Below are positions 577 to 50,704 of a DNA stretch of 64,000 bases, in pieces. Every line of letters starts with the position of its first letter. Within the stretch, counting starts at the first letter, position 1. Below the pieces are notes generated by a model that did not search any database, was not told the DNA's origin, and saw only the letters and a program-made list of their open reading frames with translations. Position numbers and translations under genes: made by a program. Source of the DNA: Candidatus Aenigmatarchaeota archaeon (GTDB taxonomy: Archaea; Aenigmatarchaeota; Aenigmatarchaeia; Aenigmatarchaeales; JACQIB01); contig JACQIB010000005.1 of the NCBI GenBank assembly GCA_016198755.1, positions 48,931-112,930 on the forward strand, read 5' to 3'.

Positions 577-3098
577 TTTACTGCCTCTTTTTTAGTTGTA
601 GTTGTTTCTGAGGGAATAAGTGCTTCCCTCATTTTCTCTGGTGTAAGGCTTGAGAAAGTTTTTGACATATCCTTTGGCCAGCTTATTGTACCCTCCCAGA
701 AGGCTTGGATTAAGGTTGCAGGATCAGCCTCTGAAAACCCCGACTTAACAAGCGCTTTTGTAGCAGTGCTTTCCCCTCCTGTCAAAACCGCCTCCACAAC
801 TGTTATTATGTCACTGGTCCCCCAGATTTTCAGATACTCGCGAGCATAATCAACATCCACATAACAATAGTTTGAAGCTTTATCCCCCAAATCTGTTTTG
901 TCCATTGCAACAAAAACTGTTGGCTCACCCTCATAATCCTGAACTTTCCAGATTTTTGCAGTGCCCATACAGGGTCCAACCAAATGGAAGCGGGGATTGG
1001 GGGGGATTGACATTAGCGCAGCCTGTATTCCTGCAAACCTTTCTAACCCAAGCGGTCTCCAGCTGCGCACAAAAAACTTTTTAGAATCATTGTTAAGGTA
1101 AATAGGTTTCTCAAACCTCTGCCCATGTGCATACAAACATATAGAATTATCTGTGCAGGTCTCTTCTACAGTAGCCTGTGTTATTTCTCCTTTCCACCAC
1201 CAGCCGCGCACATTTGCAAACGCAGTTACATCCAGAGTCACTACTTTATTTACCTCCAGCTTACCAAACTGCATTGGTATTGTTACTGGGAGCGCATTTG
1301 TGTTCTGCTCTGCAAAACCTATGAACCGCATTCTTTCTACTGGAGCTGTGCCAACAACGTTCCCTGCATCATCTAAAATTTCCTGCTCCTTGAAAACATA
1401 ATTATCCAAATAATCCCCATAGTAAGCTTTTGACCATTCATAATTGTCAGATTTCATTGTATTTTGCGCCAGCTTGGTTATCCTGTTTATCTCCTCCTCT
1501 GTAGGTGCTGATGTCTTATACACAATTTTTACCTTCTGCCCAAGCGTTTGTTTTGAAATACGCTGCTGCACTTCAAAAACAAAATTCTCGTCCACCACTC
1601 TCGCAGGATCTTCCTCAAACATTTCCTTTATTATTTTGTATTGCAAAAGCTTTGAGTCACGCGGAATAAACGCTGATTGAGCAGTGTTTTCTGAAAGCTG
1701 TCGCAAGTATTTCTGGAAAACTGTATTATCTACATAACTCTCAGACTTGAAACCAAGCTTTTTGGCAACAGTTGCCTTAAGCCTTGTGTAGGGGTGGATA
1801 GCCTCCAGTTTTGCCCAATTTTCCGCAGTCATCCTGTCTCCAAGCGCATCCACAAGTCCATTCCTTTCCACATAATCCATATTATGCCTCTCCACAGCAT
1901 ACCCAAGACTGCTCAATGAAATTTTAAACTTTTCCCACTTCTGTATAAGTGGTTTGTATCCTTCCTTGAAAAATTGTGTCTGGGAAATTTCAAACTCACG
2001 TACAACACGCGCAGACGTCACATCCTTGTAATGGATAAGGTCTTTGTCTTTCCAATCTGTAGAAAACATTTTCCTGAGCCTTGCAGCCTCATTAGGCTCT
2101 GCAAAATCATTCAAATACGTTTCGAAAAGCTCTGTTGGAGTATATTGAAGGGTTCCGAAGCCTGCCGGAGGTATTGGATCCATTGTTTCGGCTATTTCAA
2201 TTATTTTTCCCCCCTCTTCTTTGAAGTGTATATACCTTACTGTTCCATCATTGTCTATAATCTGTAGTGGTATTTTCTTTTTTGATATTGGAATTTTCCC
2301 GTCATTTGTAAGTACTGAAAAAACCTTAATTCTCGACCCCTCTGGTATTTCTCCTGCAAGCTCTGCAGAGCCCAAATCAGCAATATACACAGAATCATCG
2401 AAAAAGCCTATTTTTGAAAGGGATCCCACTTCTGTTTTGCCTATCCTTTTGTAAGCTGTGGTTACAAGCATGTCTATTCCTCTCTCCTGCTTTTTTGCTA
2501 TTATTGATGGATCCAGATTCAAATCCTTCGAAAGAGCTTCACCCCCGCCGCGTGCATTCTTTTCAACAAATTCCACTCTTTCAGAATTTTTTATGGCTGC
2601 TCCAGCAGAGCGGAGGAATTGATTGGTTTTGTAACCAGCTTCCGCTGCTCCGCGTCCAATTATTTTCGAACCCCCAACCAGAAGTGCTTTTCCAGAGCGG
2701 AAAGCTCCCCAGAAAACTAACTGCCCGCCTGCTCCACCGCTCCATGGATAGCTCTCTTCCCACATTGCAGCACCACCTGAGAAAAATCCCTCCGGAAAGC
2801 GCTCATAATAAACCTGATACTGCGGAACAGAACCCCCCCAGAAAGCTCTCCAATATCCTTCAAGTCCATCAGTGTGTTCTTGGCAGAGCTTTACATCAGC
2901 TGTATCATAGTAAATAGGATCTGTTGGCTGGGAATCTCCATTCCAGTAAGGGAAATCTGGAGAGGAAACTCTATCTACTCCTCTGGAAAGCCCAAGAGCT
3001 GTCTGGTTTGCCAATCCTGTACATTCCACAGAACCGAAAACATTCATTAAAACAATAAACAAAGCAAACAAAAACAATATTCCAACAACAACCTTCAT
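573..3098 (-). CDS. large N-terminally anchored or secreted surface protein, unknown family
   Basis: Long ORF. The track start at 3113 is GTG. The ATG at 3098 gives MKVVVGILFLFALFIVLMNVFGS (signal/anchor helix) with GAGG 7 nt upstream. It has a Gly-rich segment (GGAAMWEESYPWSGGAGGQ). It is the last large gene of the pilus-like operon. Confidence 0.8.
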   Translation of the reverse strand: MKVVVGILFLFALFIVLMNVFGSVECTGLANQTALGLSRGVDRVSSPDFPYWNGDSQPTDPIYYDTADVKLCQEHTDGLEGYWRAFWGGSVPQYQVYYERFPEGFFSGGAAMWEESYPWSGGAGGQLVFWGAFRSGKALLVGGSKIIGRGAAEAGYKTNQFLRSAGAAIKNSERVEFVEKNARGGGEALSKDLNLDPSIIAKKQERGIDMLVTTAYKRIGKTEVGSLSKIGFFDDSVYIADLGSAELAGEIPEGSRIKVFSVLTNDGKIPISKKKIPLQIIDNDGTVRYIHFKEEGGKIIEIAETMDPIPPAGFGTLQYTPTELFETYLNDFAEPNEAARLRKMFSTDWKDKDLIHYKDVTSARVVREFEISQTQFFKEGYKPLIQKWEKFKISLSSLGYAVERHNMDYVERNGLVDALGDRMTAENWAKLEAIHPYTRLKATVAKKLGFKSESYVDNTVFQKYLRQLSENTAQSAFIPRDSKLLQYKIIKEMFEEDPARVVDENFVFEVQQRISKQTLGQKVKIVYKTSAPTEEEINRITKLAQNTMKSDNYEWSKAYYGDYLDNYVFKEQEILDDAGNVVGTAPVERMRFIGFAEQNTNALPVTIPMQFGKLEVNKVVTLDVTAFANVRGWWWKGEITQATVEETCTDNSICLYAHGQRFEKPIYLNNDSKKFFVRSWRPLGLERFAGIQAALMSIPPNPRFHLVGPCMGTAKIWKVQDYEGEPTVFVAMDKTDLGDKASNYCYVDVDYAREYLKIWGTSDIITVVEAVLTGGESTATKALVKSGFSEADPATLIQAFWEGTISWPKDMSKTFSSLTPEKMREALIPSETTTTKKEAVK

Positions 3099-3117
3099 TG
3101 CTTCCTCAGGCACTCTA

Positions 3118-3384
3118 TCACCCTGCGCAGCCGCAGGTTTTGTTTACCTGCTGCTCAGTATATCCAAGCCTGCTTTGCAAATCCCCAAAAGTATACTGCT
3201 CATTGCACTGTATGTTATAATTTTTACAGACAGGTGCAAACTTTGAACAGCAGGCTAAAAGGGCTCCATAGTCTCCGCCCTGTGATATAGGTAAGTATAC
3301 AAAAAAATAAAGTATTGCAGACAGTGCAACTATTAACACAAGCACTATTATAAGCGCTGTTGTTGTGTTTATTGGCATCTCCAT
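3118..3384 (-). CDS. prepilin-like small protein, Cys-rich C-terminus
   Basis: 88 aa: MEMPINTTTALIIVLVLIVALSAILYFFVY followed by a soluble part with 6 Cys. 4-nt gaps to both neighbours. Confidence 0.6.
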   Translation of the reverse strand: MEMPINTTTALIIVLVLIVALSAILYFFVYLPISQGGDYGALLACCSKFAPVCKNYNIQCNEQYTFGDLQSRLGYTEQQVNKTCGCAG

Positions 3385-3388
3385 GATA

Positions 3389-3754
3389 TCACTTCACAGC
3401 AATATTTGAGCTACATATCTGCCCGCAGTTTGCCTTGCACTCATTCCATGCTGCGGAATCTGTCTCCCCAAAGTCTGAGATAGATCTTCCTGTCCTGTCA
3501 GAGCAGAACTGGCGCAGCCCAGGCTTTGTTTTATCCCCAGGAACCTCTATAAACCTCTGATCTTCAAGTATTCCTGCAGAAACTTTACATCCAACCTGAG
3601 CCCATTTCCCGCAATAATTCACTTTATTCACATCATCCCCGGGTTTTTGGCCAAGCTGCAGGGCTATTACAGCAATTGCCCCTACTATAATAACTATCAC
3701 AGCAAAAATAACAAAGTTCTTAAGTGTGCTTGGTGCTTCAGAATCCCCTTTCAT
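3389..3754 (-). CDS. prepilin-like small protein, Cys-rich
   Basis: 121 aa. It starts MKGDSEAPSTLKNFVIFAVIVIIVGAIAVIAL, a short charged N-terminus followed by one hydrophobic helix. The soluble part has 6 Cys. Confidence 0.6.
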   Translation of the reverse strand: MKGDSEAPSTLKNFVIFAVIVIIVGAIAVIALQLGQKPGDDVNKVNYCGKWAQVGCKVSAGILEDQRFIEVPGDKTKPGLRQFCSDRTGRSISDFGETDSAAWNECKANCGQICSSNIAVK

Positions 3755-3915: not shown

Positions 3916-4217
3916 GTGCTCACCCTTTTTGCCGGCTTGCAGTATGTGCCTTCACATACATTTCCCGCCGGACAGTCCTTTCCTGAAGCACAGCCGCACT
4001 GTTTTTCAGAAATTCCTTCACTCGCTCTTACTATACAAATGAACCCTTCTGGGTTGTCCTTACAGTTATCATTTGTTGAGCAAGCAGCTGTCAGAGTTGT
4101 ACTTGTGTTTCCATCTACAGGCCTGTTGTACAGATTCTGGGAAAAAGCTAAAACAACCATAATAAACACTAATATTCCACCAACAAGGAGTGCAGCTTGG
4201 TCAAAATCTCCCTTCAT
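3912..4217 (-). CDS. prepilin-like small protein, Cys-rich
   Basis: The track start at 4226 is GTG. The ATG at 4217 gives MKGDFDQAALLVGGILVFIMVVLAF with GGGTGA 6 nt upstream (SD-like). The C-terminal part has 8 Cys (CSTNDNCKDNPEGFIC...CGCASGKDCPAGNVCEGTYC). Confidence 0.6.
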   Translation of the reverse strand: MKGDFDQAALLVGGILVFIMVVLAFSQNLYNRPVDGNTSTTLTAACSTNDNCKDNPEGFICIVRASEGISEKQCGCASGKDCPAGNVCEGTYCKPAKRVST

Positions 4218-4222
4218 TTTAT

Positions 4223-6046
4223 TCACCCTGTTACTTTTACTGTGGCTGTGTTTATAATGTTGCCCTGTCCCGTAAGCCTTACAAATCTAAATGGATCTGC
4301 TATAAAGGTAGTATCTTTAGTGAAATTCTGCCCGCTTGTTCTGTACAGTTCTTTCCATGTTTTTCTATCAGTAGAAAACTCAACTTTAACTTCATCTCTG
4401 GAAGAGAAAGTTGCTTCTATACTGGCAGAGAGTTTTGTATATTCTTTTCTCAAATCAAACTCTATTTTATCTTTCCCGCAATCATCTCCCAAAGGAACCC
4501 CATTACCGCAGCTGTCTGTTCCGACAATTTCCCCATCCCCCTCTGCAGGCAGTATTACTATAGACCTATCCAAAGCCCCAGCCCTTTTTGCAAATACACC
4601 AGCCTGTATAAGCTTTGGGTCATCTAGGCTGCAGCGCTGAAAATCTGATGTCTTCCGATAAAAACGTTTCCCATCAAAACAGAATGGCTTTCCATCCCCC
4701 TGTCTCTCCTCTTTGAACTCTCCTGCAATGTCCCAATTGAAAATATATATTGTATAGGTTTTCCCTGCATCAAGAGTGGAGAGTGGAGATAACGCAGTTA
4801 TGTGATTTATACCTCCCTTCCCAAGAAACTGCGCAGCTTGTGTCCCTCCACTCTTATAAAATAAGTTTACATTAAGCTTGTTCCCGTTCTCATCTTCCCT
4901 TAGCTGGACCTGTTGGTATTCAGTTATGTTAGAAGCTGCTTTTCCTATACACTCTTCCTTGTTATTGCAGGTTCCAATATCAAAATCAAATCCTGATTTA
5001 TCCTGTATCAATCCTACAAAATCCTCTATAGAAATGCTGTTTGTTACAGAATAATCTGAAATCTCCGTTAGTCTGAGCTCAGGTATCAATGAGCCTGCTT
5101 CTTCTGTTCTCTTAAAGTTTTTCAGATAATAAGAAAGCTGGTCTGCAACAGCTCCGCTTGACAGTGAAGGCTCTGAAGAGTGCTTTGGTATGCGCAGAAA
5201 ATCTATATTGTATTTACAGCCTGAACCGCATTTCTTTTCCTTTGGATTCTCATATGGAACCCATTTAACAAGGTAAAGCATGGTATTGGAACTTGGATAA
5301 AGGGAGGGGGGGCTCTTTCCTTTTTCAAGTTTGTCTGAAACAAGATAAGAACTGTTTGTTATATCAGTCTGCCAGACTGTTATTTTGTCTTCCCCGCCAC
5401 AAAGAGAAGAACAGCTCTCACCCTGCAACGGGCTGGAAACAGAATCTGTTCCAAAGGTTTGTGAACCAACAGAAACGCAGTTGCTGTTCCCAAACTTTAA
5501 GGTTTCCAAAGAATTGTGCACAAAGCGGGAAAGTGTTCCGCAGATTTTCTGACCTGAAAATTCTCTGAGGGAAAGTTGTTTTGTAAGGCATTGTTCATCT
5601 AACAGCGGGGAACACGGAGAGCATGATTGAACAGTTAACTTATCCCTTTCTTTCTGGGATAAATCATTATAATAGACAGGCCTCTGCTTTTCAGAATTCC
5701 ATGGAACATCAAATGTACCCCAGCCTACAATACTGTCTTTGCTGAAAGGAAGGGAAGCACCATGTGGATAGTTGCCGTTGGAAACAAAATCAGATGATAT
5801 ATCCTTTGCTATTTTACATGAAATCTGTGAACTTGTAAGCGGCTGTCCATCCTCTGTTAAATTTATCTGAGGCACAACACCAAGCATATCCAGAAATTCA
5901 AAACCATTTGGAGTTTCAACCCCTGGTTTTGTAGGGAAAGGATTAAAATCCAAGTTAATTAGCTTCAAGAAAGATCCAAAGAGTAAAAGAGCTATAACTG
6001 CTGCAACAACAATAACAAGCAGTGTTATAGTACTAATCCTGTCCAT
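4223..6046 (-). CDS. surface protein, paralog 1 of a Cys-framework family; C-terminal beta-sandwich (F5/8-type-C/CBM-like) tip
   Basis: 607 aa with N-terminal helix MDRISTITLLVIVVAAVIALLLFG. It shares ordered motifs with the next two genes (SCKIAKDISSDF; CSPCSPLLDEQCL; GKTYTIYIFNWD). The C-terminus ends ...DPFRFVRLTGQG, reminiscent of discoidin-type domains (weak call). Confidence 0.85.
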   Translation of the reverse strand: MDRISTITLLVIVVAAVIALLLFGSFLKLINLDFNPFPTKPGVETPNGFEFLDMLGVVPQINLTEDGQPLTSSQISCKIAKDISSDFVSNGNYPHGASLPFSKDSIVGWGTFDVPWNSEKQRPVYYNDLSQKERDKLTVQSCSPCSPLLDEQCLTKQLSLREFSGQKICGTLSRFVHNSLETLKFGNSNCVSVGSQTFGTDSVSSPLQGESCSSLCGGEDKITVWQTDITNSSYLVSDKLEKGKSPPSLYPSSNTMLYLVKWVPYENPKEKKCGSGCKYNIDFLRIPKHSSEPSLSSGAVADQLSYYLKNFKRTEEAGSLIPELRLTEISDYSVTNSISIEDFVGLIQDKSGFDFDIGTCNNKEECIGKAASNITEYQQVQLREDENGNKLNVNLFYKSGGTQAAQFLGKGGINHITALSPLSTLDAGKTYTIYIFNWDIAGEFKEERQGDGKPFCFDGKRFYRKTSDFQRCSLDDPKLIQAGVFAKRAGALDRSIVILPAEGDGEIVGTDSCGNGVPLGDDCGKDKIEFDLRKEYTKLSASIEATFSSRDEVKVEFSTDRKTWKELYRTSGQNFTKDTTFIADPFRFVRLTGQGNIINTATVKVTG

Positions 6047-7395
6047 TAACCCACCTCAAATAGAGAAACAGAAACATCCCGCAGCTTGTTTTCTTTTATT
6101 ATTTTCCCTTTATCCTGCCAGTTCTCCCGTATACAGTCCCTCTTTGGCTTGCATTCGCTGTCACAAGAATTTGTATCTTTTGTGCAGGCACCGCAGGTTG
6201 GATTTCCGCCGCAAGCGCCAGTACAGTCAGTTGTTTCCCTTTCAGCTGTTATACCCCACTTCCTTATTATAACTCTATACTGTTTTCCAGCCTGCAAAGT
6301 CCCGCTGTCCGAAACAGTTGTGTACAAGTTAAGGTCGTTATAGTTTGGATCCTCATATGTACATACACCTGTGGTTTCCTTCTTGAAAAATCCTTCAGGC
6401 TTTACATTTATACAATCCTCCCCTGTACATGCTCTGTACTTTACGTCATATTTTGTTATTTCTTTTACTTTCTGTGCAAAAGCCAAGAAAGAAATATCTG
6501 CTGAGGGTGTAAAGTAAAAATCTTTCTTTTCCCTTATACCCTCTGTATAGGCGCCTGCAGTTTCAGATCTGGCTGCTGATTTGAGAACATTACCTACAGT
6601 CTCACCTAATTGATCTGCTTCAAAATTCCCAAGCTGTTCTGTTTTTGGGACGCGGGGAAAGTGGAGATTATATGTTTTGCTTGCGCTATCCCAGTAAAGA
6701 ACATAAGAATAGGGCCTTCCATCCTGCACAAGTGCAGATTCTGTATAGGAATCTGAGGTAACCTCACTCTCAGATGTAACATCAGCTTTCCAGTCCTTTA
6801 TCATATCCCCCCCAGGGCAGGTCTCTGAGCAAGCCTGACCAGAGCTGAAAGAAGCACAGTGATCGTTTCCGAACTTTACAAGATCCCCGTTCTGGCTTGA
6901 TATAAAGTTTCCGCAGAGTTTTATCTCAGAAACATTCAAAATTCCAAGATTCGCAGAAACACAGGCCTCATCAAAAACCGAAGGACAGGGAGCACAGATA
7001 GAATTTCTCAAAGTATTTTTCTGTTTTTCTGTGAGTGTCCAGTCTGAACTAAGGTTGAAAATCCCGCCTGAAACAATGCAGGTTCCAAGGAAACAGAATT
7101 CCCTCTGCCCCTTTGTCCCGTATTTTGAAATATCCAATGCAAGGTCCTTTGCTATTGAACATCCAACCTCTGAGGAGGCAAATGTTGGGGAGGAAGAGCT
7201 GATAGGTCTGTAAACCTCAAAAATACCGGGAAAGTCTGCACGCGGGAAAACTGGTAAGGTTGTCCTTGTTGTAACTATTGTTGTTGGAACATTGGGGGGG
7301 TGTAGAGAAAAATATGGAACTGCTATTGCTATTGTTATGCCAAGTGCAACAATGCCCATAACTACTGCGAACAGTTCCCATTTTGTTATTTCCAT
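6046..7395 (-). CDS. surface protein, paralog 2 of a Cys-framework family; Cys-knot-like C-terminus
   Basis: 449 aa with N-terminal helix MEITKWELFAVVMGIVALGITIAIAV. Motifs: GCSIAKDLALDIS; CAPCPSVFDEACV; GKQYRVIIRKWG. The C-terminus is TDCTGACGGNPTCGACTKDTNSCDSECKPKRDC. 1-nt stop/start overlap with paralog 1. Confidence 0.85.
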   Translation of the reverse strand: MEITKWELFAVVMGIVALGITIAIAVPYFSLHPPNVPTTIVTTRTTLPVFPRADFPGIFEVYRPISSSSPTFASSEVGCSIAKDLALDISKYGTKGQREFCFLGTCIVSGGIFNLSSDWTLTEKQKNTLRNSICAPCPSVFDEACVSANLGILNVSEIKLCGNFISSQNGDLVKFGNDHCASFSSGQACSETCPGGDMIKDWKADVTSESEVTSDSYTESALVQDGRPYSYVLYWDSASKTYNLHFPRVPKTEQLGNFEADQLGETVGNVLKSAARSETAGAYTEGIREKKDFYFTPSADISFLAFAQKVKEITKYDVKYRACTGEDCINVKPEGFFKKETTGVCTYEDPNYNDLNLYTTVSDSGTLQAGKQYRVIIRKWGITAERETTDCTGACGGNPTCGACTKDTNSCDSECKPKRDCIRENWQDKGKIIKENKLRDVSVSLFEVG

Positions 7396-7517: not shown

Positions 7518-9707
7518 TTAAACCTCTTTTATTGTCATTGTACCTGAACGCTCATTATTCTGCTCATTAACTTCTGTGACAGAGTTTGCGCTGTCTGCGA
7601 TAACTTTTATTTCCTTTACACCAGCAGTATCAGGAGTCCACTGGAAACGCACCCCAAGTTTCTCCCTGCCTGAACCAGACTGCTGCAGAATATCTATAGT
7701 CTGTGTGCTTATTGTTTTGCTGTTCACAACAAGAGCAACTAAAAAGTTTGATACTGGAATGGAACCTCTGTTCTCTATAACAGCATCTATCTGAATCTGA
7801 GATCTTACAACACCGTTTGCTGGTATTGCAAAATCTGAAACTAAAATATCTGTGCCCTCAACTGAAAATGTTGCAGAGCCTTTATTGTTCTCCTCATTTG
7901 TTTCTTCAACCTCCTCTTTTGTGTCTGCGAAAACAACAACCCTGTCTGCGCCAAGTCCTGGGCTAAGTGTAACAGTCTGCCTGATTGAACCTTTTGCTGG
8001 TATATTTGGAGCCGTTATCTTTTTCGAGTCTGCGCCAGAAGAAACAGTAACCTCAAAGGCTGAAGTTTCAACATCCCCAATATTTGCAATATCGTATGTA
8101 ATAGTAACAGAGGGGTTGGGATTTGTTGGTGTGGCTGTTAGTTTCTGTGGTTCGAGAGAAATGGATTTTACAACAATATCAGGCCTTAATTGACCTAAAT
8201 CAACCAGAACAAGAGAATAGTCTATATAGCCCCCGAACTGCTTCCAGCTGTCTAATCCCTGCCCACCGCACCAACTGCCGCTTACTATACACATATCATC
8301 CTTTATGCAATAACCTTCATTTTTTTCAGATAGAACCGGTGTTCTTTCCCACTTGTTCAAAACAACATTATATCTGTGGTCTGCCCTTAGTAAAGTATTA
8401 GGTTCTACAGAAGTCTTTATTTTAAATGTTCTTAAGTCTTTATTCAGGTTTTTACAATTTACTAGGTCTGAAGCTGTGTAATGAGCAAGTGCTGCATTAG
8501 TATAATATTCCTTATATTTTTTCTCTATTATAGAAGTCGCATAACACATATTCCCTTGGCATTGCTCTGTCGGAGCTATTATATAATCGCCAACACCGCT
8601 CGCTTTTCTATCTCCACCAAAATCTATGTCGGGGGCAATCCTTATTTTTCCTATACGACTTGTGAAATCTTGTGTGAAACTATTTATGTTATACTCTGTG
8701 GCTGGAACAAATGTTGTGTTGTAAATTGTCCTGAATTCTGGTTTTGCAAAACCTGCTGCTGTTGACCTTACAGGAGTGGTTTTAAATGTATCTGCAAGAC
8801 TGAGAGCCACACCCTGCGGAGCTGTTCTTCCCTTTTCATCTCCAAGAGATATTTTGGGTATCTCATAGTGATAAGCTTTGTCGGATTTGTCCCAGTAAAG
8901 TGCCCATGAATACTGGGGAGTGCAGTCTCCTCCTTTGCACTCCGGTGGGAAAGCTGTATTTGAAAGCTTTGTATCATCCACCTCAAGCTCATCTCTTTTA
9001 TTTCCAAATTTGCTTGCCTGCGCTTTCGCATTTTTAACAGAGTCTGCTGCACCACATACTCCACAATCAAAACTCCACTCTGAAGAGCTGGAACATACTT
9101 TATTTCCAAACGCAAAGGAAGCAGCTCCGGGCACTGAAAGGCTGCTGCATAATGGAACTTCAGAAGCATTTAGATGGGAGAGAGCTGCTGTTATGCAAGC
9201 CTCATCAAAATGGGAAGGACAGGGAGTAAAAGAACCTGTATCAGAGCAGTATTCTTTTAGTTTTTTCAGCTGCTCTGCTGTTAAATCCTCTGCTTTCCAG
9301 GGATTACCAGTTGCAGGATTTTTCTCTATTATAAAACGCTCTGTTGCTATAAGTGCGAGGTCTGTGCCCTGTATTTTTTTCTGCTCATCCACAACCCTTG
9401 GGTTTACACCATGTGCAAGCAAATCAGCCTGCATTGCCCTTGCTATTTTGCAGGCTATTCTGGTTGATGTTTCAGGCTGGGAATCCTGAGTAGGGTCTGA
9501 TTTAGCTAAGGAACCAAAAGGTTCGCTTACGAAAACAGTAGCATCTCCGCCCCCGTTAGTACCGGGTTTATGGCCGCTGACAATATCCTGAATCCACTTG
9601 TTTATGTTTTGCATATTTGGAATAACAACAACAAGAAGGGCAGCAGCAAGCAGAATGACTAGAATAGCTATAATGGCTGCTGTTAAGGTATTAATTGCCC
9701 CTCTCAT
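7518..9707 (-). CDS. surface protein, paralog 3 of a Cys-framework family, with two C-terminal CARDB-like domains
   Basis: 729 aa. The N-terminus MRGAINTLTAAIIAILVILLAAALLVVVI resembles a class III (prepilin-type) signal. Family motifs: IACKIARAMQADL; TPCPSHFDEACI; DHRYNVVLNKWE. The C-terminus has two repeats with CARDB hallmarks (IANIGDVETSAFEV...ETNEENN and IENRGSIPVSNFLV...EVNEQNN). Confidence 0.85.
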   Translation of the reverse strand: MRGAINTLTAAIIAILVILLAAALLVVVIPNMQNINKWIQDIVSGHKPGTNGGGDATVFVSEPFGSLAKSDPTQDSQPETSTRIACKIARAMQADLLAHGVNPRVVDEQKKIQGTDLALIATERFIIEKNPATGNPWKAEDLTAEQLKKLKEYCSDTGSFTPCPSHFDEACITAALSHLNASEVPLCSSLSVPGAASFAFGNKVCSSSSEWSFDCGVCGAADSVKNAKAQASKFGNKRDELEVDDTKLSNTAFPPECKGGDCTPQYSWALYWDKSDKAYHYEIPKISLGDEKGRTAPQGVALSLADTFKTTPVRSTAAGFAKPEFRTIYNTTFVPATEYNINSFTQDFTSRIGKIRIAPDIDFGGDRKASGVGDYIIAPTEQCQGNMCYATSIIEKKYKEYYTNAALAHYTASDLVNCKNLNKDLRTFKIKTSVEPNTLLRADHRYNVVLNKWERTPVLSEKNEGYCIKDDMCIVSGSWCGGQGLDSWKQFGGYIDYSLVLVDLGQLRPDIVVKSISLEPQKLTATPTNPNPSVTITYDIANIGDVETSAFEVTVSSGADSKKITAPNIPAKGSIRQTVTLSPGLGADRVVVFADTKEEVEETNEENNKGSATFSVEGTDILVSDFAIPANGVVRSQIQIDAVIENRGSIPVSNFLVALVVNSKTISTQTIDILQQSGSGREKLGVRFQWTPDTAGVKEIKVIADSANSVTEVNEQNNERSGTMTIKEV

Positions 9708-46786: not shown

Positions 46787-48790
46787 CTAAATTTTCTGCA
46801 CAAAACCTGTGCGCGGCTCGAAAATCATACCCTCCCTCTTAAGCCTCTGTAAAAGTTCCTCGAAATCCTTCTCGTTTATACCTTCATCCTCTGCTGCAGC
46901 AAGCAGCTCTTCTTTTGGAATCTGCTTTCCTAAACTCTTTTCAAGCTTTCCAATCAAATCCAGTATCATTGTTATCTTTGTCCTTTGGGAAGCCGGTGTT
47001 CCTCCTTCCAGCTTATCCACATCAAGCTTTCCTGTCTCATAATCATATCCAAGCTGTTTTATTGATTCCTGCATCACATTTATTGCTCTTTCAGCATCCT
47101 GAACTTCAACTGTTGGAGATAGCCTTATTTTAGCTGAAGCTTCTGAAAGCCTGATTAATGCTTCGTTCTGCCTGAGTGTTATTGCTACTGTGTTTGAGCC
47201 TGAGTATAGACTTCTCATTGTCAGATAAAACTGCTTTAACCTCTCAGCTGCTTCGCGTGTCATTATTGGATGGGCATTTTTCCTGCAATAAGCTATGTAT
47301 TTTCTCAAAAACTCTGGCTTGATTAGAGGTTCTACTTTTTCTGGTGCAAGCCTTGTTTCCAGAATATGCGCAGCTAACTTTTCATCCTTTACTGGATCTG
47401 GAATATCTCTCAGGGCAAACTTTAGGTCAAACCTGCTTAACAGAGTATCTGGTATTGTTAATTGTTCAGCTATAGATTTGTATGGATCAAATCTGGAAAA
47501 TTTTGGATTTGCACCAGCCAATACAGAAACCTGAGCTGGGAGCGTTGCAACTATAGAGGCTTTTGCTATGCTCACAGTCTGCTGTTCTAAAGCCTCGTGC
47601 ATAGCAACCTGATCCTCAACTGAAATTTTGTCAAACTCATCTATTGCCATTATTCCCTTATTTGCCAGAACCATTGCGCCTGCTTCCAGCACCCAGCCTC
47701 CCATTAACTCCTCATCTTTGACTACAGTCGCGGTCAGACCAGCGCCAGTTGCACCCCTTCCTGAAACATACTTGCCGCGCGGGATTATTGAGGAAGTGAG
47801 CTTTAGCAATTGGGATTTTGCCACTCCCGGATCTCCTAAAAGCAAAACGTGAATATCGCCCCTGATTTTTGTACCATCAGGGAACTTATGCCTGACACCC
47901 CCGAAAAGTTGCAATATTATAGCATCCTTAATCTCACCCAGACCGTATATCGAGGGAGCAAGAGACTCGCGCAGCTTTTTATAAATCTCCGGATCTGCTG
48001 CAAACTCCATTATCTTTTCCTCATCCTGAGCTGTTGTGTTTACCTCTTCCCACTCTACATCAGTTGATTCAATGGAATTTGTTTCTATGAACATCTCCAT
48101 TTGAGTTTTCATTCTTCCCTTTATCATCCTATGCAGCTCTTTTACAATCCCTACAATCTTCAGCCTGTTGCCAGGGTCTGTTTTCCTCTGCATATCAGGA
48201 GTTGTCAGATCCTCTTTCATGGAAATATTTACTTCACCTGGCCTTTCCCCGCTTGCTGTTTCATAAGGCTCCTCCAAAGTTATAACACGGGAATCATACA
48301 GCTTCCTGTCCACCATATCAAACCTTGCTTTTATTCCGCATTCAGGACAGGCTACTGGGCCGTTTAACATCCTTTCCTTCTGCTCAACACCAAATTTTGC
48401 AGTACATTCAGGGCACTGGAAAATAGCTATTGAAATTTCCGGCCTGACCTCAGAAGCTCTCCTTACTGTACCTTCTACAGCAATAAATTTCCCTATATGT
48501 TCTGAACGTAAGCTGCGTATCCTTATTGTTGCTGATTCCGGCAAATTAATGAACCTGACTTTAAACCCTTCTGTTCCTTCAGGAACATCAAGCTCGCGCA
48601 GGGCAAAGTTTACAATGGGCAGGAGCCTTTCTGGTTCGTTTAAAAGCTTGTCAGCCAGTTCAGGATCAAATTTATCCAGATTTGAAAAATCAACTGCAAT
48701 AGATTTTTTTCCTTCCCTTGTAGCTGTCAGTAAATCCTGCTCATAAAACTGCCTTAAAAATTCCTCAAATCTTTCCTGTTCATTATCCAT
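46787..48790 (-). CDS. mcm: minichromosome maintenance (MCM) replicative helicase
   Basis: Zn finger CPECTAKF...CPECG. Walker A GDPGVAKSQLL. Walker B AIDEFDK. Arg finger LLSRFDL. C-terminal wH ...REGMIFEPRTGFVQKI. ATG at 48790 (MDNEQERFEEFLRQFY) with GGTGGG upstream. The track extension to 48922 is unlikely. No intein. Confidence 0.92.
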   Translation of the reverse strand: MDNEQERFEEFLRQFYEQDLLTATREGKKSIAVDFSNLDKFDPELADKLLNEPERLLPIVNFALRELDVPEGTEGFKVRFINLPESATIRIRSLRSEHIGKFIAVEGTVRRASEVRPEISIAIFQCPECTAKFGVEQKERMLNGPVACPECGIKARFDMVDRKLYDSRVITLEEPYETASGERPGEVNISMKEDLTTPDMQRKTDPGNRLKIVGIVKELHRMIKGRMKTQMEMFIETNSIESTDVEWEEVNTTAQDEEKIMEFAADPEIYKKLRESLAPSIYGLGEIKDAIILQLFGGVRHKFPDGTKIRGDIHVLLLGDPGVAKSQLLKLTSSIIPRGKYVSGRGATGAGLTATVVKDEELMGGWVLEAGAMVLANKGIMAIDEFDKISVEDQVAMHEALEQQTVSIAKASIVATLPAQVSVLAGANPKFSRFDPYKSIAEQLTIPDTLLSRFDLKFALRDIPDPVKDEKLAAHILETRLAPEKVEPLIKPEFLRKYIAYCRKNAHPIMTREAAERLKQFYLTMRSLYSGSNTVAITLRQNEALIRLSEASAKIRLSPTVEVQDAERAINVMQESIKQLGYDYETGKLDVDKLEGGTPASQRTKITMILDLIGKLEKSLGKQIPKEELLAAAEDEGINEKDFEELLQRLKREGMIFEPRTGFVQKI

Positions 48791-48987
48791 TTTCCCACCC
48801 AAAAAGAGTTGGAGAGAATAGAATTTCCAAAGGTTAAATAGCTGAATGGAACTGAGAAAAAGTGAATCCATGGGAAATTTTTTCTTTAACCTAAGCTTCC
48901 AGTGGGCAGGTAAACTGCTCAACAGAAAAGTTCTTAAACCTACCTACGGGAAAGAAAGTATTAATTCTAGATTTGAGAATTTATTCC

Positions 48988-49395
48988 ATGGCTGTGGGGG
49001 CTGCAGAAGGGGTAAGAGAGGTGGTGGATGTTGATTTTTTAGCTGTTGCTATAGAACAACCAGTACTATTGGCTCTTATGCTAGATCTTAATGGCCGGAG
49101 ACCGATGGATAGGGGTGCTTATGGAACTGCTTTCACATCAAGATACAACAAAGAGCATCAACCCCCTACTACACAACAATACGTGGATGGTGTAATAGGA
49201 ATTCTGGTTGAGAGAGGTATTGTTGGAACAACTCCAACAATTGATGGAGAAGATGTTTATGTCAATAAAGGACAACAGGCTCTGTTCGCTGTGCTTGGAA
49301 AATACAAAGTTGAAAGTGGTTGTGTTATTACAAAACCCAATGGACATTCAACACCGAGAAGCCAGCTACCTATTTTTGAACAAAAACAAACTTAG
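48988..49395 (+). CDS. hypothetical protein (possible wHTH)
   Basis: ATG at 48988: MAVGAAEGVREVVDVDFLAVAIEQPVLLALMLDLNGRRPMDRG.... Its last codons lie inside repeat copy A. Confidence 0.5.
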   Translation: MAVGAAEGVREVVDVDFLAVAIEQPVLLALMLDLNGRRPMDRGAYGTAFTSRYNKEHQPPTTQQYVDGVIGILVERGIVGTTPTIDGEDVYVNKGQQALFAVLGKYKVESGCVITKPNGHSTPRSQLPIFEQKQT

Positions 49396-49448
49396 CTCTG
49401 TATTATTTTTTTATTAAGATTCTTCAGCCTCTTATCTACCTTTACAAC
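49372..49448. repeat. copy A: duplicate of the tbp 3-prime end plus its downstream flank
   Basis: atttttgaacaaaaacaaacttagctctgtattatttttttattaagattcttcagcctcttatctacctttacaac is nearly identical to 50048-50121 (a few substitutions, a 2-nt indel and a 1-nt indel). Confidence 0.85.
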
Positions 49449-49464
49449 GACCCGTCTTATATGC

Positions 49465-49731
49465 TTAATTCCTTCTGAGCTTTTTGTATACTACGCTCCT
49501 ATGATCTACTAACCTAACAAATATTTCCCTTTTTGATTCCTCTATATCCAATATAACCCTATAGTCACCAACCCTTAGCTTATACCCGTTGTCTCCGGCT
49601 AAACGGGAAACGAAGATATGTGGGCTTTCTTTTAGAGACTCTATTTTAAGAAATATTCTTCTCGCAAGAATATGCTCCAATTTTCTCATTTGTTCCAGAG
49701 ATTTCGGATCCCACAATATTTTATATGCCAC
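49465..49731 (-). CDS. relE: RelE/ParE-family toxin
   Basis: 88 aa. MAYKILWDPKSLEQMRKL...GYKLRVGDYRVILDIEESKREIFVRLVDHRSVVYKK is the typical RelE/ParE C-terminal pattern. Confidence 0.75.
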   Translation of the reverse strand: MAYKILWDPKSLEQMRKLEHILARRIFLKIESLKESPHIFVSRLAGDNGYKLRVGDYRVILDIEESKREIFVRLVDHRSVVYKKLRRN

Positions 49732-49753
49732 AAGAATATTGCTGTCCGCTCCC

Positions 49754-49951
49754 TTATAAGAATTCCCTTCTGACAGCTTCGTGTTCTGTAAATTCGCTCT
49801 TCTCTCTCCTTCTGGACTCCGCTAATAGCCTTTTGGCGTGGCCTGACAACTCTATTTCATCTTCTATTACCATTCTAAGCTCCTCAACATTCTCCTTTAA
49901 CGACAGTATATCCTTGTGCATGTGCTCTAAAGATAGCTGTTGGGTTTTCAT
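49754..49951 (-). CDS. putative cognate antitoxin
   Basis: ATG at 49951: MKTQQLSLEHMHKDILSLKENVEELRMVIEDEIELSGHAKRLLAESRRREKSEFTEHEAVRREFL. It lies 22 nt upstream of the toxin. The call rests on position and size. Confidence 0.55.
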   Translation of the reverse strand: MKTQQLSLEHMHKDILSLKENVEELRMVIEDEIELSGHAKRLLAESRRREKSEFTEHEAVRREFL

Positions 49952-49995
49952 AATAAAGAGTTGTTTTTTATAACTTATAAGGCTTTGCCTGTTCA

Positions 49996-50034
49996 AAGGT
50001 TCTTCGGCCTTTTATCTACCTTTACAACAGCGCG
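49996..50034. repeat. copy B: partial, slightly decayed duplicate of the tbp 3-prime coding end
   Basis: aaggttcttcggccttttatctacctttacaacagcgcg versus 50089-50127 aaggttcttcagcctcttatctacctttacaacagcgcg (2 mismatches). Weaker similarity continues to about 50048. Confidence 0.8.
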
Positions 50035-50047
50035 CTCAGATACCCGC

Positions 50048-50127
50048 ATTTTAACAAGAACAAACTTAGCTCTGTATTATTTTTTATTAAGGTTCTTCAG
50101 CCTCTTATCTACCTTTACAACAGCGCG
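50048..50127. repeat. copy C: the resident tbp 3-prime end and downstream flank (master copy of repeats A and B)
   Basis: It contains the tbp stop (50077-50079) and the last 14 codons plus part of a 15th (...AVVKVDKRLKNLNKK*). Confidence 0.85.
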
Positions 50128-50619
50128 TTCAACATCGGCTATGCTTCTGCCTCCAGTGCAAATAACTTTTCCTGAACCAAACAACAAAAAGGTCACTTTA
50201 GGATCGTCCATTCTGTAAACCAATCCTGGGAATTGTTCAGGCTCGTATTCTGTGTTTTCTAAAGTGAAAGCAATATCATCTAAATTTAATTCCCCTTCAA
50301 TTTTTGCAGAAGCAACAATATTTTCCAGCCTTACAGTATAGTTGGAAGGTATCCTTATGCCAAGTTTTCTCATTTTTCCAACTATTTTAGCTATGACTTC
50401 CTTTGATTCCTTTGGACTTTTTGCACCTGTACATACAATCTTTCCTGAAGAAAAAATCAAAGCTGCTGCTTTCGGCTCTTTCATTCTCAAAACCACTCCA
50501 GGAAACTGTTCAGGCTCGTACTCTATCCCTTCCAGTCCAGCCACAACCTTTTCAAGCTTTACTTCAGTATTCAAGTTAGCAGAAGCCACAACGTTCTCAA
50601 TTTTTATTCTATAGGCCAT
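50077..50619 (-). CDS. tbp: TATA-box binding protein
   Basis: ATG at 50619: MAYRIKIENVVASANL.... Two direct TBP repeats (ENVVASANL...EPEQFPGVVLRM...SGKIVCTGAKS and ENIVASAKI...EPEQFPGLVYRM...SGKVICTGGRS). The track extension to 50745 is unlikely. Confidence 0.92.
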   Translation of the reverse strand: MAYRIKIENVVASANLNTEVKLEKVVAGLEGIEYEPEQFPGVVLRMKEPKAAALIFSSGKIVCTGAKSPKESKEVIAKIVGKMRKLGIRIPSNYTVRLENIVASAKIEGELNLDDIAFTLENTEYEPEQFPGLVYRMDDPKVTFLLFGSGKVICTGGRSIADVERAVVKVDKRLKNLNKK

Positions 50620-50641
50620 TTTAGAACCCCTTTCAAGCTTA

Positions 50642-50674
50642 GGGTATTTATAAAGGAGGGGGTATTTAAATACC
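50642..50674. promoter_or_regulatory. divergent promoter with two TATA boxes (tbp / dph6)
   Basis: gggtatttataaagg (50642-50656) lies about 26 nt from the tbp ATG on the minus strand. The palindrome ggtatttaaatacc (50661-50674) lies about 35 nt upstream of the dph6 ATG at 50705. Confidence 0.45.
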
Positions 50675-50704
50675 TTTTTAAAGGCCTGCAGCGCAGGTTT
50701 TCGA

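What the first reader, a model, noticed from the sequence alone, without database searches (positions are those of the whole stretch)
49372..50127. RelE-type TA cassette bracketed by duplicated copies of the tbp 3-prime end: scar of site-specific insertion
The last ~40 nt of tbp plus ~35 nt of its downstream flank (copy C, 50048-50121) recur almost perfectly at 49372-49448 (copy A). A third, partial and slightly decayed copy (B, 49996-50034, weaker to ~50048) directly abuts copy C.

Between A and B lie only the RelE-like toxin and its small upstream partner. The ~600-nt cassette is thus flanked by direct repeats derived from an essential gene's 3-prime end. This is what integrative elements do at tRNA genes, where the att site regenerates the target's 3-prime end.

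Copy A also supplies the last codons and the stop of the convergent gene 48988..49395 (...IFEQKQT*). Three copies imply at least two insertion or recombination events. No integrase is present, so this may be a remnant or a minimal mobilisable module. I am not aware of tbp being described as an integration target.
Basis: partly seen in the sequence, partly recalled or inferred. Interest (0 to 1): 0.6.

Follow-up and report, generated by a model that had tools for sequence, protein, structure and literature searches.

The report
Toxin-antitoxin insertion scar beside tbp
A small RelE-type toxin-antitoxin gene pair was inserted between the converging ends of the TATA-binding-protein gene and an orphan gene in a tiny DPANN archaeal genome. 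The host junction was copied on both sides, so both neighbours kept their ends, and no recombinase gene is found in the genome.

Summary
Copies A (49363-49455), B (49996-50036) and C (50037-50129) are real, occur only at this locus, and are identical in nine independent assemblies. A related metagenome contig (L044) has the same gene order with one junction copy and no toxin-antitoxin (TA) pair, so an empty site exists.

The repeats are host sequence: the last 16 codons of tbp plus the last 10 codons of the convergent orphan gene. The boundaries fit two simple events. First, a 93-nt tandem duplication of the junction, with its novel joint at B|C sharing 2 nt (CA). Second, insertion of a 547-nt self-promoted RelBE cassette into the distal copy, with a 33-nt target duplication (49416-49448 / 49996-50028).

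No tyrosine or serine recombinase, TnpB, Cas1 or reverse transcriptase is found in the 89%-complete genome. The cassette has no terminal inverted repeats and no att-like copy elsewhere.

At least five other small toxin cassettes in this genome (two RelBE, HicBA, two HEPN-MNT; a Fic gene differs) are also bracketed by locus-specific direct repeats of 20-59 nt. Integrase-type "att" integration is therefore possible but unsupported. I favour duplication-generating illegitimate insertion, filtered by selection in a very compact genome.

The parts
50077..50619 (-). tbp (TATA-binding protein, 180 aa), single copy in the genome; its last 16 codons and stop lie inside copy C
   Evidence: Pfam PF00352, E = 2e-62; one match in the own genome
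50037..50129 (.). Copy C (unit 2 of the 93-nt tandem duplication). 50077-50129 is the functional tbp 3' end (t). 50037-50076 is h', a dead copy of the orphan gene's last 10 codons with an in-frame TAA; on the minus strand it holds the T-rich stretch after the tbp stop.
49996..50036 (.). Copy B, the right-hand remnant of unit 1: 33 nt matching the tbp end plus 8 nt (AGCGCGCT) that continue the tbp reading frame. On the minus strand it reads RAVVKVDKRPKNL*. The B|C joint at 50036|50037 shares a 2-nt microhomology (CA).
   Evidence: 95% identity to L044 5575-5615
49449..49995 (-). Inserted 547-nt RelBE cassette. It contains BRE/TATA-like sequence (49952-49995: GCAAAGCCTTATAAGTTATAAAAAA), the antitoxin, a 22-nt gap, the toxin, and 16 nt after the toxin stop.
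   Evidence: Absent from the syntenic contig L044. GC 0.38 against 0.41 for the window. The promoter is read from the sequence and is inferred.
49754..49951 (-). Putative antitoxin, 65 aa. The C-terminal half (IEDEIELS...RR..K.EF) resembles partners of homologous archaeal RelE genes. There is no Pfam hit.
   Evidence: 32% identity to the antitoxin-position ORF at L062 2620-2838
49465..49731 (-). RelE-type toxin, 88 aa, GTG start. It aligns from residue 1 with E. coli RelE; the KLR...YR and HRSVVY motifs are conserved.
   Evidence: PF05016 at 30.8 bits; PDB 2KHE 3.9e-7 and RelE 4V7J/4FXE 1.5e-5 to 8e-5
49363..49455 (.). Copy A, the left part of unit 1. 49363-49402 (h) is the functional last 10 codons, stop and spacer of the orphan gene. 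49403-49448 is a non-coding copy of the tbp end, which carries the T7 run (49406-49412) just after the orphan gene's stop. 49416-49448 is the 33-nt repeat paired with B.
   Evidence: A/B alignment score 51; the genome null maximum is 29
48988..49395 (+). Orphan 135-aa gene convergent on tbp. Only one homologue cluster exists in 5.8 billion proteins (63% identity, in L044). It is absent from 41 genomes of the order, where mcm directly follows tbp.
46787..48793 (-). mcm, the ancestral downstream neighbour of tbp. In 24 of 29 relatives' loci it starts at most about 230 nt after the tbp stop.

Best explanation
Shown:
- A horizontally acquired, self-promoted RelE/antitoxin cassette (547 nt) sits between the overlapping 3' ends of two convergent genes, tbp and an orphan gene. 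The host is a DPANN (Aenigmatarchaeota-like) archaeon.
- The host junction is present 2.5 times around the cassette.
- A related lineage has the same locus with a single junction and no cassette.

Inferred mechanism:
- No dedicated integrase was involved.
- The boundaries fit two illegitimate, duplication-generating events, or one replicative event with several template switches.
- Event 1 is a 93-nt tandem duplication of the junction. The unit runs from codon -10 of the orphan gene to codon -17 of tbp. Its novel joint is B|C, with 2-nt microhomology. This gave each gene a private 3' end and T-rich terminator and created a non-coding landing pad.
- Event 2 is insertion of the cassette into the distal tbp-end copy with a 33-nt target duplication (A-t and B).
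- In a genome this compact, each gene's terminator lies inside the other gene's last codons. Only insertions that duplicate the target leave both neighbours intact, so selection enriches such events.
- The addictive TA pair then resists loss by recombination between the repeats.
- The RelBE operon now ends at the duplicated tbp terminator.
For: - Empty site: L044 is fully syntenic (mcm, orphan gene, tbp, dph6, 346-aa gene, PNP, bPH_2). Its two stop codons are 19 nt apart. 66 nt of L044 (5542-5607) are matched twice in the window, and 41 nt a third time.
- Boundary geometry. B keeps 8 further nt of tbp reading frame on its tbp side, and A lacks them. A continues into the natural downstream sequence. 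This is the pattern of a target duplication around 49449-49995. B|C is a head-to-tail joint of the same unit.
- The repeats contain lineage-specific spacer sequence (AACAAACTTAGCTCTGTA) that differs from L044, so they were copied from this host.
- No PF00589, PF00239, PF07282, PF01867 or PF00078 hit in the genome, with positive controls working.
- No terminal inverted repeats and no shared cassette ends. No structured-RNA signal: z about 0 and no Rfam hit.
- The same pattern occurs at other toxin cassettes of this genome, each with different local sequence:
  - RelBE at C2:49100-49623: 26-35 nt repeat covering the last codons and stop of a class-II aaRS-like gene, score 32, 0 of 5000 null positions reach it.
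  - RelBE at C5:173865-174352: 24 nt, score 25, null 0.26%.
  - HicBA at C3:3537-3990: 59 nt, made of the promoter plus the first 8 codons of the next gene.
  - HEPN-MNT at C5:137138-138161: 29 nt.
  - HEPN-MNT at C2:111985-112979: 20 nt.

- The tbp-mcm spacer was invaded independently in another family member: two genes in G004.
Against: - No donor sequence is known. The best RelE relatives are only about 54% identical, so junction microhomology with a donor cannot be tested. The only testable joint (B|C) shares just 2 nt.
- One synonymous site groups A with C (AAG) and B with L044 (AAA). That contradicts the simple order 'tandem duplication first, then 33-nt duplication' unless there was homoplasy or A/C gene conversion.
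- A/C identity is uneven: 7 of 22 mismatches in the orphan-gene tail against 0 of 18 in the adjacent spacer. That also calls for gene conversion, uneven selection or a foreign allele.
- RelE cassettes in 10 related genomes show no flanking repeats (scores 11-21). The pattern is so far specific to this genome.
- The genome is 89% complete. A recombinase could sit in the missing part or on an unbinned virus or plasmid.
Confidence: 0.55

Rival explanations
1. Integrase-mediated site-specific integration. A small element, or the remnant of a larger one, carrying an attP that mimics the tbp 3' end integrated once or twice in tandem. This left attL, attR and a middle att. The integrase was lost or acts in trans from a virus or plasmid, making the cassette a cis-mobilisable element.
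For: - Direct repeats of 33-93 nt at the 3'-distal part of a protein gene, regenerating that gene's end, with an empty site in a relative.
- Archaeal integrated elements do use the 3' ends of protein genes, have att sites up to 69 bp, and integrate in tandem at one site (PMC6563490).
- Uneven A/C identity could reflect donor against recipient alleles outside a recombination core.
- A Fic-gene cassette elsewhere in the genome is bracketed by a 34-nt, 97% repeat taken from the end of a multi-copy RNA-like element, which looks like classical att use.
Against: - No integrase in the cassette or in the genome.
- No second copy of the repeat in the genome or in 2.9 million viral contigs.
- The repeat includes host-lineage-specific spacer sequence.
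- Five or more cassettes with unrelated repeats of different length would need as many specific recombinases, all lost while both att sites survived.
- No conserved cassette termini.
Confidence: 0.25
2. Campbell-type homologous integration. A circularised DNA fragment from a related strain carried the TA pair next to its own copy of the orphan-gene/tbp junction. It recombined by a single crossover within the conserved roughly 65-nt core, duplicating the junction. B|C would then be the circle-closure joint.
For: - The dead copy of the orphan-gene tail (h' in C) is as far from A's tail as from L044's (7 of 24 each). The core is nearly identical, as expected if h' came from a third lineage and the crossover occurred in the core (direct reading).
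- B shares the AAA codon with L044.
Against: - The 18-nt spacer next to the core is identical in A and C but very different in L044, so the supposed donor would have to be both very close and 30% diverged within 40 nt.
- No such donor lineage exists among 15 billion proteins. The tbp and orphan-protein clusters are singletons.
- It still needs an earlier unexplained insertion in the donor.
Confidence: 0.12
3. Not an insertion. The repeats are a functional terminator or regulatory repeat, or an assembly artefact. The TA pair would be ancestral and lost in the relative.
For: - The repeats contain the T-runs that probably terminate tbp, the orphan gene and the RelBE operon (read from the sequence).
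- Loss of the TA pair by A x C recombination would also leave a single copy, as seen in L044.
Against: - Nine independent assemblies are identical.
- 24 of 29 loci from relatives in the order have mcm directly after tbp, with neither the orphan gene nor a TA pair.
- No relative shows triplicated repeats without a TA pair.
- No fold or Rfam signal.
- Even if L044 lost the cassette, the cassette must first have been inserted with the repeats.
Confidence: 0.05

Closest known systems
Archaeal integrated mobile elements that target the 3'-distal region of protein-coding genes (e.g. thaumarchaeal iMGEs, Krupovic et al. 2019, PMC6563490; crenarchaeal att sites of 29-69 bp)
   Same: Direct repeats flank the insert. 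The target gene's 3' end is regenerated. An empty site is seen in a relative. More than two repeat copies can arise at one site.
   Different: The insert is only 547 nt and carries just a TA pair. There is no integrase in the element or the genome. The repeats are copied from this host's own lineage-specific junction. Other cassettes in the genome have unrelated repeats of variable length.
Bare chromosomal type II TA insertions in bacteria (mazEF in relA-mazG, yafNO in dinB-yafP, ccdO157 in folA-apaH), as reviewed by Fraikin et al. 2020 (PMC7167474)
   Same: A two-gene TA module sits alone between housekeeping genes. It is absent from relatives whose flanking genes are undisturbed. The site is also used by other inserts.
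   Different: Here the insertion left long target duplications (33 and 93 nt). The review mentions no direct repeats and states that the integration mechanism of TA systems is unelucidated. The host is a DPANN archaeon.
E. coli RelBE and archaeal RelBE type II toxin-antitoxin systems (PDB 4FXE, 4V7J, 2KHE)
   Same: The toxin aligns over its full length with RelE and conserves the C-terminal Arg and Tyr positions. A small antitoxin gene lies upstream with its own promoter.
   Different: The antitoxin has no recognisable DNA-binding domain (no DUF7557 or RHH hit) and is about 15 residues shorter than partners of the nearest RelE homologues.
Integron gene cassettes carrying TA pairs (Vibrio superintegrons; integrons reported in Archaea). 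Recalled from memory, not checked in papers here.
   Same: Promoter-bearing or promoterless cassettes of about 0.5 kb, often TA pairs, lacking their own recombinase.
   Different: No attC-like imperfect palindrome, no IntI, no cassette array. The flanking repeats are host coding sequence.
Microhomology-mediated template switching or tandem-duplication junction capture (FoSTeS/MMBIR-type rearrangements). Established concept, recalled from memory.
   Same: Variable-length duplication of local sequence around an inserted foreign segment. Complex multi-copy outcome. Short microhomology at the novel joint.
   Different: Not documented for TA acquisition in archaea. Only one joint could be examined, and its microhomology is just 2 nt.

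Membership tests
RelE/ParE-superfamily type II toxin | Match to the family profile above the curated threshold | tested here: met
   PF05016 at 30.8 bits against a cut-off of 23, residues 5-79
RelE/ParE-superfamily type II toxin | Full-length similarity to structurally solved RelE, with conserved C-terminal basic and Tyr residues | tested here: met
   2KHE 3.9e-7; E. coli RelE 4V7J/4FXE 1.5e-5 to 8e-5 over residues 1-83. KLRVGDYR aligns with KLRSSGYR, and HRSVVY with (E)RSEVY. The catalytic role of these residues is from prior knowledge.
RelE/ParE-superfamily type II toxin | Ribosome-dependent mRNA cleavage, neutralised by the partner protein | not testable with these tools
   Needs expression and toxicity-rescue assays
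Type II TA operon (RelBE-like) | Small antitoxin gene immediately upstream, homologous to partners of related toxins | tested here: inconclusive
   A 65-aa ORF ends 22 nt before the toxin start. Its C-terminal half aligns with partners of RelE homologues (32% identity). There is no Pfam or NCBIfam hit, while those partners hit DUF7557.
Integrase-mediated integrative element (att-flanked iMGE) | Direct repeats (attL/attR) at the borders, with the target gene end regenerated | tested here: met
   A/C and A/B repeats
Integrase-mediated integrative element (att-flanked iMGE) | Empty site in a related genome | tested here: met
   L044
Integrase-mediated integrative element (att-flanked iMGE) | Tyrosine or serine recombinase encoded in the element or elsewhere in the genome | tested here: not met
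   Only two ORFs lie between the repeats. No PF00589 or PF00239 hit in the genome, with controls positive. The genome is 89% complete.
Integrase-mediated integrative element (att-flanked iMGE) | The att sequence travels with the element (an attP copy on a virus, plasmid or other locus) | tested here: not met
   No further copy in the genome or in viral contigs. The repeat contains host-lineage-specific spacer.
Integron gene cassette | attC imperfect inverted repeat at the cassette end, plus IntI | tested here: not met
   No inverted repeat at the cassette ends. Fold z-scores about 0. No PF00589 hit.
Insertion sequence, MITE or transposon | Terminal inverted repeats, a fixed short target duplication, multiple copies, a transposase | tested here: not met
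   The inverted-repeat test is null (p 0.37-0.77). Duplications of 20-93 nt differ between cassettes. The repeat and cassette are single-copy. No TnpB or Cas1.
Duplication-generating illegitimate insertion (template switching or junction capture) | Flanking repeats are copies of local host sequence, contiguous with the natural flanks | tested here: met
   B continues 8 nt into the tbp frame. A continues into the natural downstream sequence. The spacer is lineage-specific.
Duplication-generating illegitimate insertion (template switching or junction capture) | Microhomology at novel joints | tested here: inconclusive
   The B|C joint shares CA (2 nt). The cassette joints cannot be judged without the donor sequence.

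The most novel reading that the evidence does not exclude
Bare toxin-antitoxin and toxin-like cassettes (RelBE, HicBA, HEPN-MNT) may enter this DPANN genome by one shared route. That route would use no cassette-encoded recombinase, and none is encoded in the genome. It would duplicate 20-93 nt of the target, so the interrupted gene end, promoter or terminator is regenerated. If so, this genome shows a footprint of how 'naked' TA modules integrate into chromosomes, a step the field describes as unelucidated. The tbp locus, with its empty site, is the clearest example.
Probability: 0.3. Interest if true: 0.7.

Novelty: new variant of a known kind. Interest (0 to 1): 0.45.

Why it matters
TA modules are among the most mobile prokaryotic genes, yet how a two-gene cassette without a recombinase lands in a chromosome is not known (Fraikin et al. 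2020, PMC7167474). This locus offers three things together:
- a clean before-and-after comparison (L044 against the window);
- nucleotide-resolved boundaries;
- several sister cases in the same 0.89-Mb genome.

Together they point to long, variable target duplications instead of a specific att site. The locus also shows how an ultra-compact genome, where convergent genes share terminator sequence, can accept foreign DNA next to an essential gene (tbp) without damaging it. If the pattern holds in other compact genomes, it gives a searchable signature for recent TA acquisition and a testable insertion mechanism.

Tried and rejected
1. Dispersed repeat. Rejected: there are only three copies, all at this locus.
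2. A partial tbp copy in relative G027 as a sign of an element targeting tbp. Rejected: it is a 91-aa single-repeat TBP in a second dph6-tbp-mcm locus, not an element.
3. A donor of the cassette. None found: the best RelE hits are about 54% identical, and the repeat pattern is absent from viral contigs.
4. Strain variants lacking the cassette.
5. More lineages of the genus. The TBP and orphan-protein 90% clusters are singletons.
6. Empty sites for the other cassettes. Relatives are too distant and the neighbouring genes are not syntenic. The one close metagenome contig starts inside the downstream gene.
7. Generality across the order. Eleven evaluable RelE cassettes in relatives show no boundary repeats.
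8. Conserved cassette ends or inverted repeats. None.
9. Structured RNA or an Rfam family in the repeat. None.
10. The large repeated blocks at the ends of contigs C2 and C5 are paralogous surface-protein genes, not insertion sequences.
11. Excess of synonymous differences between repeat copies as a sign of a foreign allele. It does not discriminate, because changes in the still-functional copy are filtered by selection.
12. One search was wasted: by mistake I searched a 40-aa fragment instead of the full aaRS, using up the last homologue search.
Full report
**Context**

The window is contig C3:48931-112930 of a 0.89-Mb, six-contig, 89%-complete genome. Its nearest TBP relatives in public genomes are MAGs labelled Candidatus Aenigmatarchaeota (80% identity). 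The organism is therefore a DPANN archaeon. That label is an inference from relatives.

**Observation**

The three repeats are real.
- A 49363-49455 and C 50037-50129 share a core of 94.7% identity over 75 columns (49374-49448 / 50049-50121). The E-value is 8e-27 against the whole genome.
- B (49996-50036, extendable to 50038) matches the tbp-end part of C at 93% over 43 nt (E = 4.8e-7).
- There is no other copy in the genome or in viral contigs.

The tbp gene (50077-50619, minus; PF00352, 2e-62) ends inside C. The convergent orphan ORF 48988-49395 ends inside A.

Between A and B lie only two genes.
- An 88-aa RelE-type toxin (49465-49731). It hits PF05016 at 30.8 bits, and it aligns from residue 1 with E. 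coli RelE and with 2KHE, with KLRVGDYR and HRSVVY conserved.
- A 65-aa upstream ORF (49754-49951). Its C-terminal half resembles the partners of homologous archaeal RelE genes.

Eight contigs from five runs are 100% identical to the window over 2 kb. This is not an assembly artefact, and the arrangement is fixed in the sampled population.

**What the repeat unit is**

The unit is the shared junction of two convergent genes.
- h is 40 nt: the last 10 codons, the stop and the spacer of the orphan gene.
- t is 53 nt: the tbp stop plus its last 16-17 codons.

Each gene's T-rich putative terminator lies inside the other gene's end. The T6-7 run after the orphan gene's stop is the Lys-Lys codons of tbp. 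The TTTGTTYTTGTT after the tbp stop lies in the orphan gene's tail. This is read from the sequence, and terminator function is inferred.

**Empty site**

The orphan protein has a single homologue cluster in 5.8 billion proteins (63% identity). Its contig L044 (36 kb) is fully syntenic: mcm, orphan gene, tbp, dph6, a 346-aa gene, PNP and bPH_2. It has no TA pair, and the two stop codons are 19 nt apart.

The blastn comparison gives three matches.

| L044 | Window | Identity |
|---|---|---|
| 4853-5607 | 48702-49448 | 82% |
| 5542-6187 | 50056-50700 | 91% |
| 5575-5615 | 49996-50036 | 95% |

So 66 nt of the single L044 junction occur twice in the window, and 41 nt occur a third time.

**Deeper ancestry**

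- In 24 of 29 loci from relatives in the order, mcm follows tbp directly.
- The orphan gene is absent from all 41 other genomes of the order that were searched.
- The orphan gene was therefore an earlier insertion into the tbp-mcm spacer.
- Another family member (G004) has two unrelated genes at the same place. The site is permissive.

**Anatomy of the scar**

Read in the tbp direction, the order is: tbp body, t(C), h'(C), B, cassette, t(A), h(A), orphan gene.
- B carries 8 further nt of tbp reading frame (AGCGCGCT) on its tbp side. A does not: its 7 equivalent nt match 4 of 7.
- A runs on into the natural downstream sequence.
- That is the geometry of a 33-nt target duplication (49416-49448 / 49996-50028; 3 mismatches) around a 547-nt insert (49449-49995).
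- The B|C joint (50036|50037) joins the end of the unit to its start and shares CA. That is the geometry of a 93-nt tandem duplication.
- The simplest history is a tandem duplication followed by cassette insertion into the distal, non-coding copy. A single replicative event with three template switches would give the same product.
- h'(C) now carries an in-frame TAA. B would encode ...KRPKNL*.
- The insert carries BRE/TATA-like sequence 20-35 nt upstream of the antitoxin ATG (inferred).

**Points that do not fit neatly**

- A/C identity is uneven: 7 of 22 mismatches in the orphan-gene tail, 0 of 18 in the adjacent spacer, and 1 mismatch plus 1 indel in t.
- The tails of A, C and L044 are equidistant (7 of 24 each).
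- At one synonymous tbp site, A and C share G while B and L044 share A.
- These points suggest A/C gene conversion, uneven selection or a foreign allele. They keep the Campbell-type and att models alive.

**Recombinases**

The genome has no hit to PF00589, PF00239, PF07282, PF01867 or PF00078, and the controls were positive. The large repeats at contig ends are surface-protein paralogues. The cassette has no inverted-repeat ends. The repeat has no fold or Rfam signal.

**A wider pattern in the same genome**

The genome has six PF05016 toxins. I aligned a 90-nt window upstream of each antitoxin with a 90-nt window at each toxin stop. I compared the scores with 5000 random genome positions of the same geometry, where a score of 25 or more occurs at 0.26%, 32 or more at 0 of 5000, and the maximum is 29.

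| Cassette | Score | Flanking repeat |
|---|---|---|
| tbp RelBE | 51 | 33 nt (A/B) |
| RelBE at C2:49100-49623 | 32 | 26-35 nt: last codons and stop of a class-II aaRS-like gene, plus the TATA region of the next gene |
| RelBE at C5:173865-174352 | 25 | 24 nt, starting at the upstream gene's stop |
| Fourth RelBE | 21 | weak |
| Two further RelBE | 13 each | none |

An unbiased scan for local direct repeats found more bracketed toxin cassettes.
- HicBA (C3:3537-3990): 59 nt at 80%, made of the promoter plus the first 8 codons (MRFLGANY) of the next gene.
- HEPN-MNT (C5:137138-138161): 29 nt.
- HEPN-MNT (C2:111985-112979): 20 nt.
- A Fic gene (C3:245780-246724): 34 nt at 97%, taken from the end of a multi-copy element of about 75 nt.

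Except for the Fic case, the repeats are unrelated local sequence that regenerates the interrupted neighbour. RelE cassettes in ten related genomes show nothing comparable (scores 11-21). I could not obtain empty sites for these other cassettes.

**Interpretation**

- That this is an insertion with duplication of the host junction is shown.
- That it was integrase-independent is inferred. The grounds are the missing recombinases, the host-specific repeat sequence, the absence of cassette ends, and the variable, locus-specific repeats at sister cassettes.
- I favour duplication-generating illegitimate recombination or template switching. Selection in a genome with almost no spare intergenic DNA would retain only insertions that regenerate both neighbours. 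TA addiction would oppose loss by repeat recombination.
- Integrase action in trans (about 25%) and Campbell-type integration of a related strain's fragment (about 12%) remain possible.

**Comparison with known systems**

- Archaeal integrated elements do target the 3' ends of protein genes, with att sites up to 69 bp and tandem integrations (PMC6563490). Those elements encode integrases.
- Bare chromosomal TA insertions between housekeeping genes are known in bacteria. Their integration mechanism is stated to be unelucidated (PMC7167474).
- This case is a new variant: a bare TA cassette with long target duplications, next to an essential archaeal gene, with an empty-site comparison.

**Limits**

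- There is only one comparison lineage.
- No donor sequence is known.
- One homologue search was wasted.

Noticed in passing
Own genome outside the window: C2:49039-49064 / 49618-49643 (RelBE); C5:173821-173843 / 174354-174377 (RelBE); C3:3454-3512 / 4044-4102 (HicBA); C5:137106-137134 / 138202-138230 (HEPN-MNT); C2:111999-112018 / 113046-113065 (HEPN-MNT): Five further small toxin cassettes are bracketed by direct repeats of 20-59 nt made of local target sequence (a gene's 3' end, or a promoter plus first codons). This is far more than expected from a genome-wide null. No empty sites could be obtained.
   Followed up: partly
Own genome C3:245722-245755 / 246786-246819 (L121): A 314-aa Fic/DOC-family gene is bracketed by a 34-nt, 97% repeat. 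The repeat is the end of a roughly 73-81-nt element present at four or more loci (C1:47766, C1:68570, C2:223165, C3:246784; 92-95% identity). Neither ARAGORN nor Rfam recognises the element. It ends in ...GGCGCCA and might be an unusual or split tRNA-like gene. A TGTAGTCACC motif recurs three times around the Fic gene.
   Followed up: partly
L039 (G027:C3) 8870-9145, minus: A relative carries a second dph6-tbp-mcm locus. Its 'TBP' is a 91-aa single-repeat protein (half a normal TBP), followed by a 1588-aa MCM with two large insertions that look like inteins.
   Followed up: no
L057 (G004:C35) 1400-3504: In another member of the family, two unrelated genes (258 and 432 aa) lie between tbp and mcm. 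This is an independent insertion at the same spacer.
   Followed up: no
window 48988-49395: The orphan 135-aa protein has one homologue cluster worldwide (180 aa as called, 63% identity). It has no Pfam or NCBIfam hit. Its sequence looks winged-helix-like by eye, which was not tested.
   Followed up: partly
Own genome C5:30139-32863 (L053 139-2863): The 23S rRNA match covers model positions 1423-2973 in 2.7 kb, implying about 1.2 kb of insertions. Three copies of a 50-nt repeat lie at L053 1601, 1734 and 2882.
   Followed up: no
Own genome C2:216039-216099 / 219766-219826 (L054): A 61-nt, 100% identical repeat lies upstream of two consecutive genes, one encoding a 1170-aa Asn-rich surface protein. 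It is probably a duplicated promoter or leader.
   Followed up: no
window 49689-49731: Gene callers in several public assemblies start the toxin at an internal ATG (74 aa). The GTG start at 49731 (88 aa, MAYKILWDP...) is supported by alignment from residue 1 with solved RelE proteins.
   Followed up: yes
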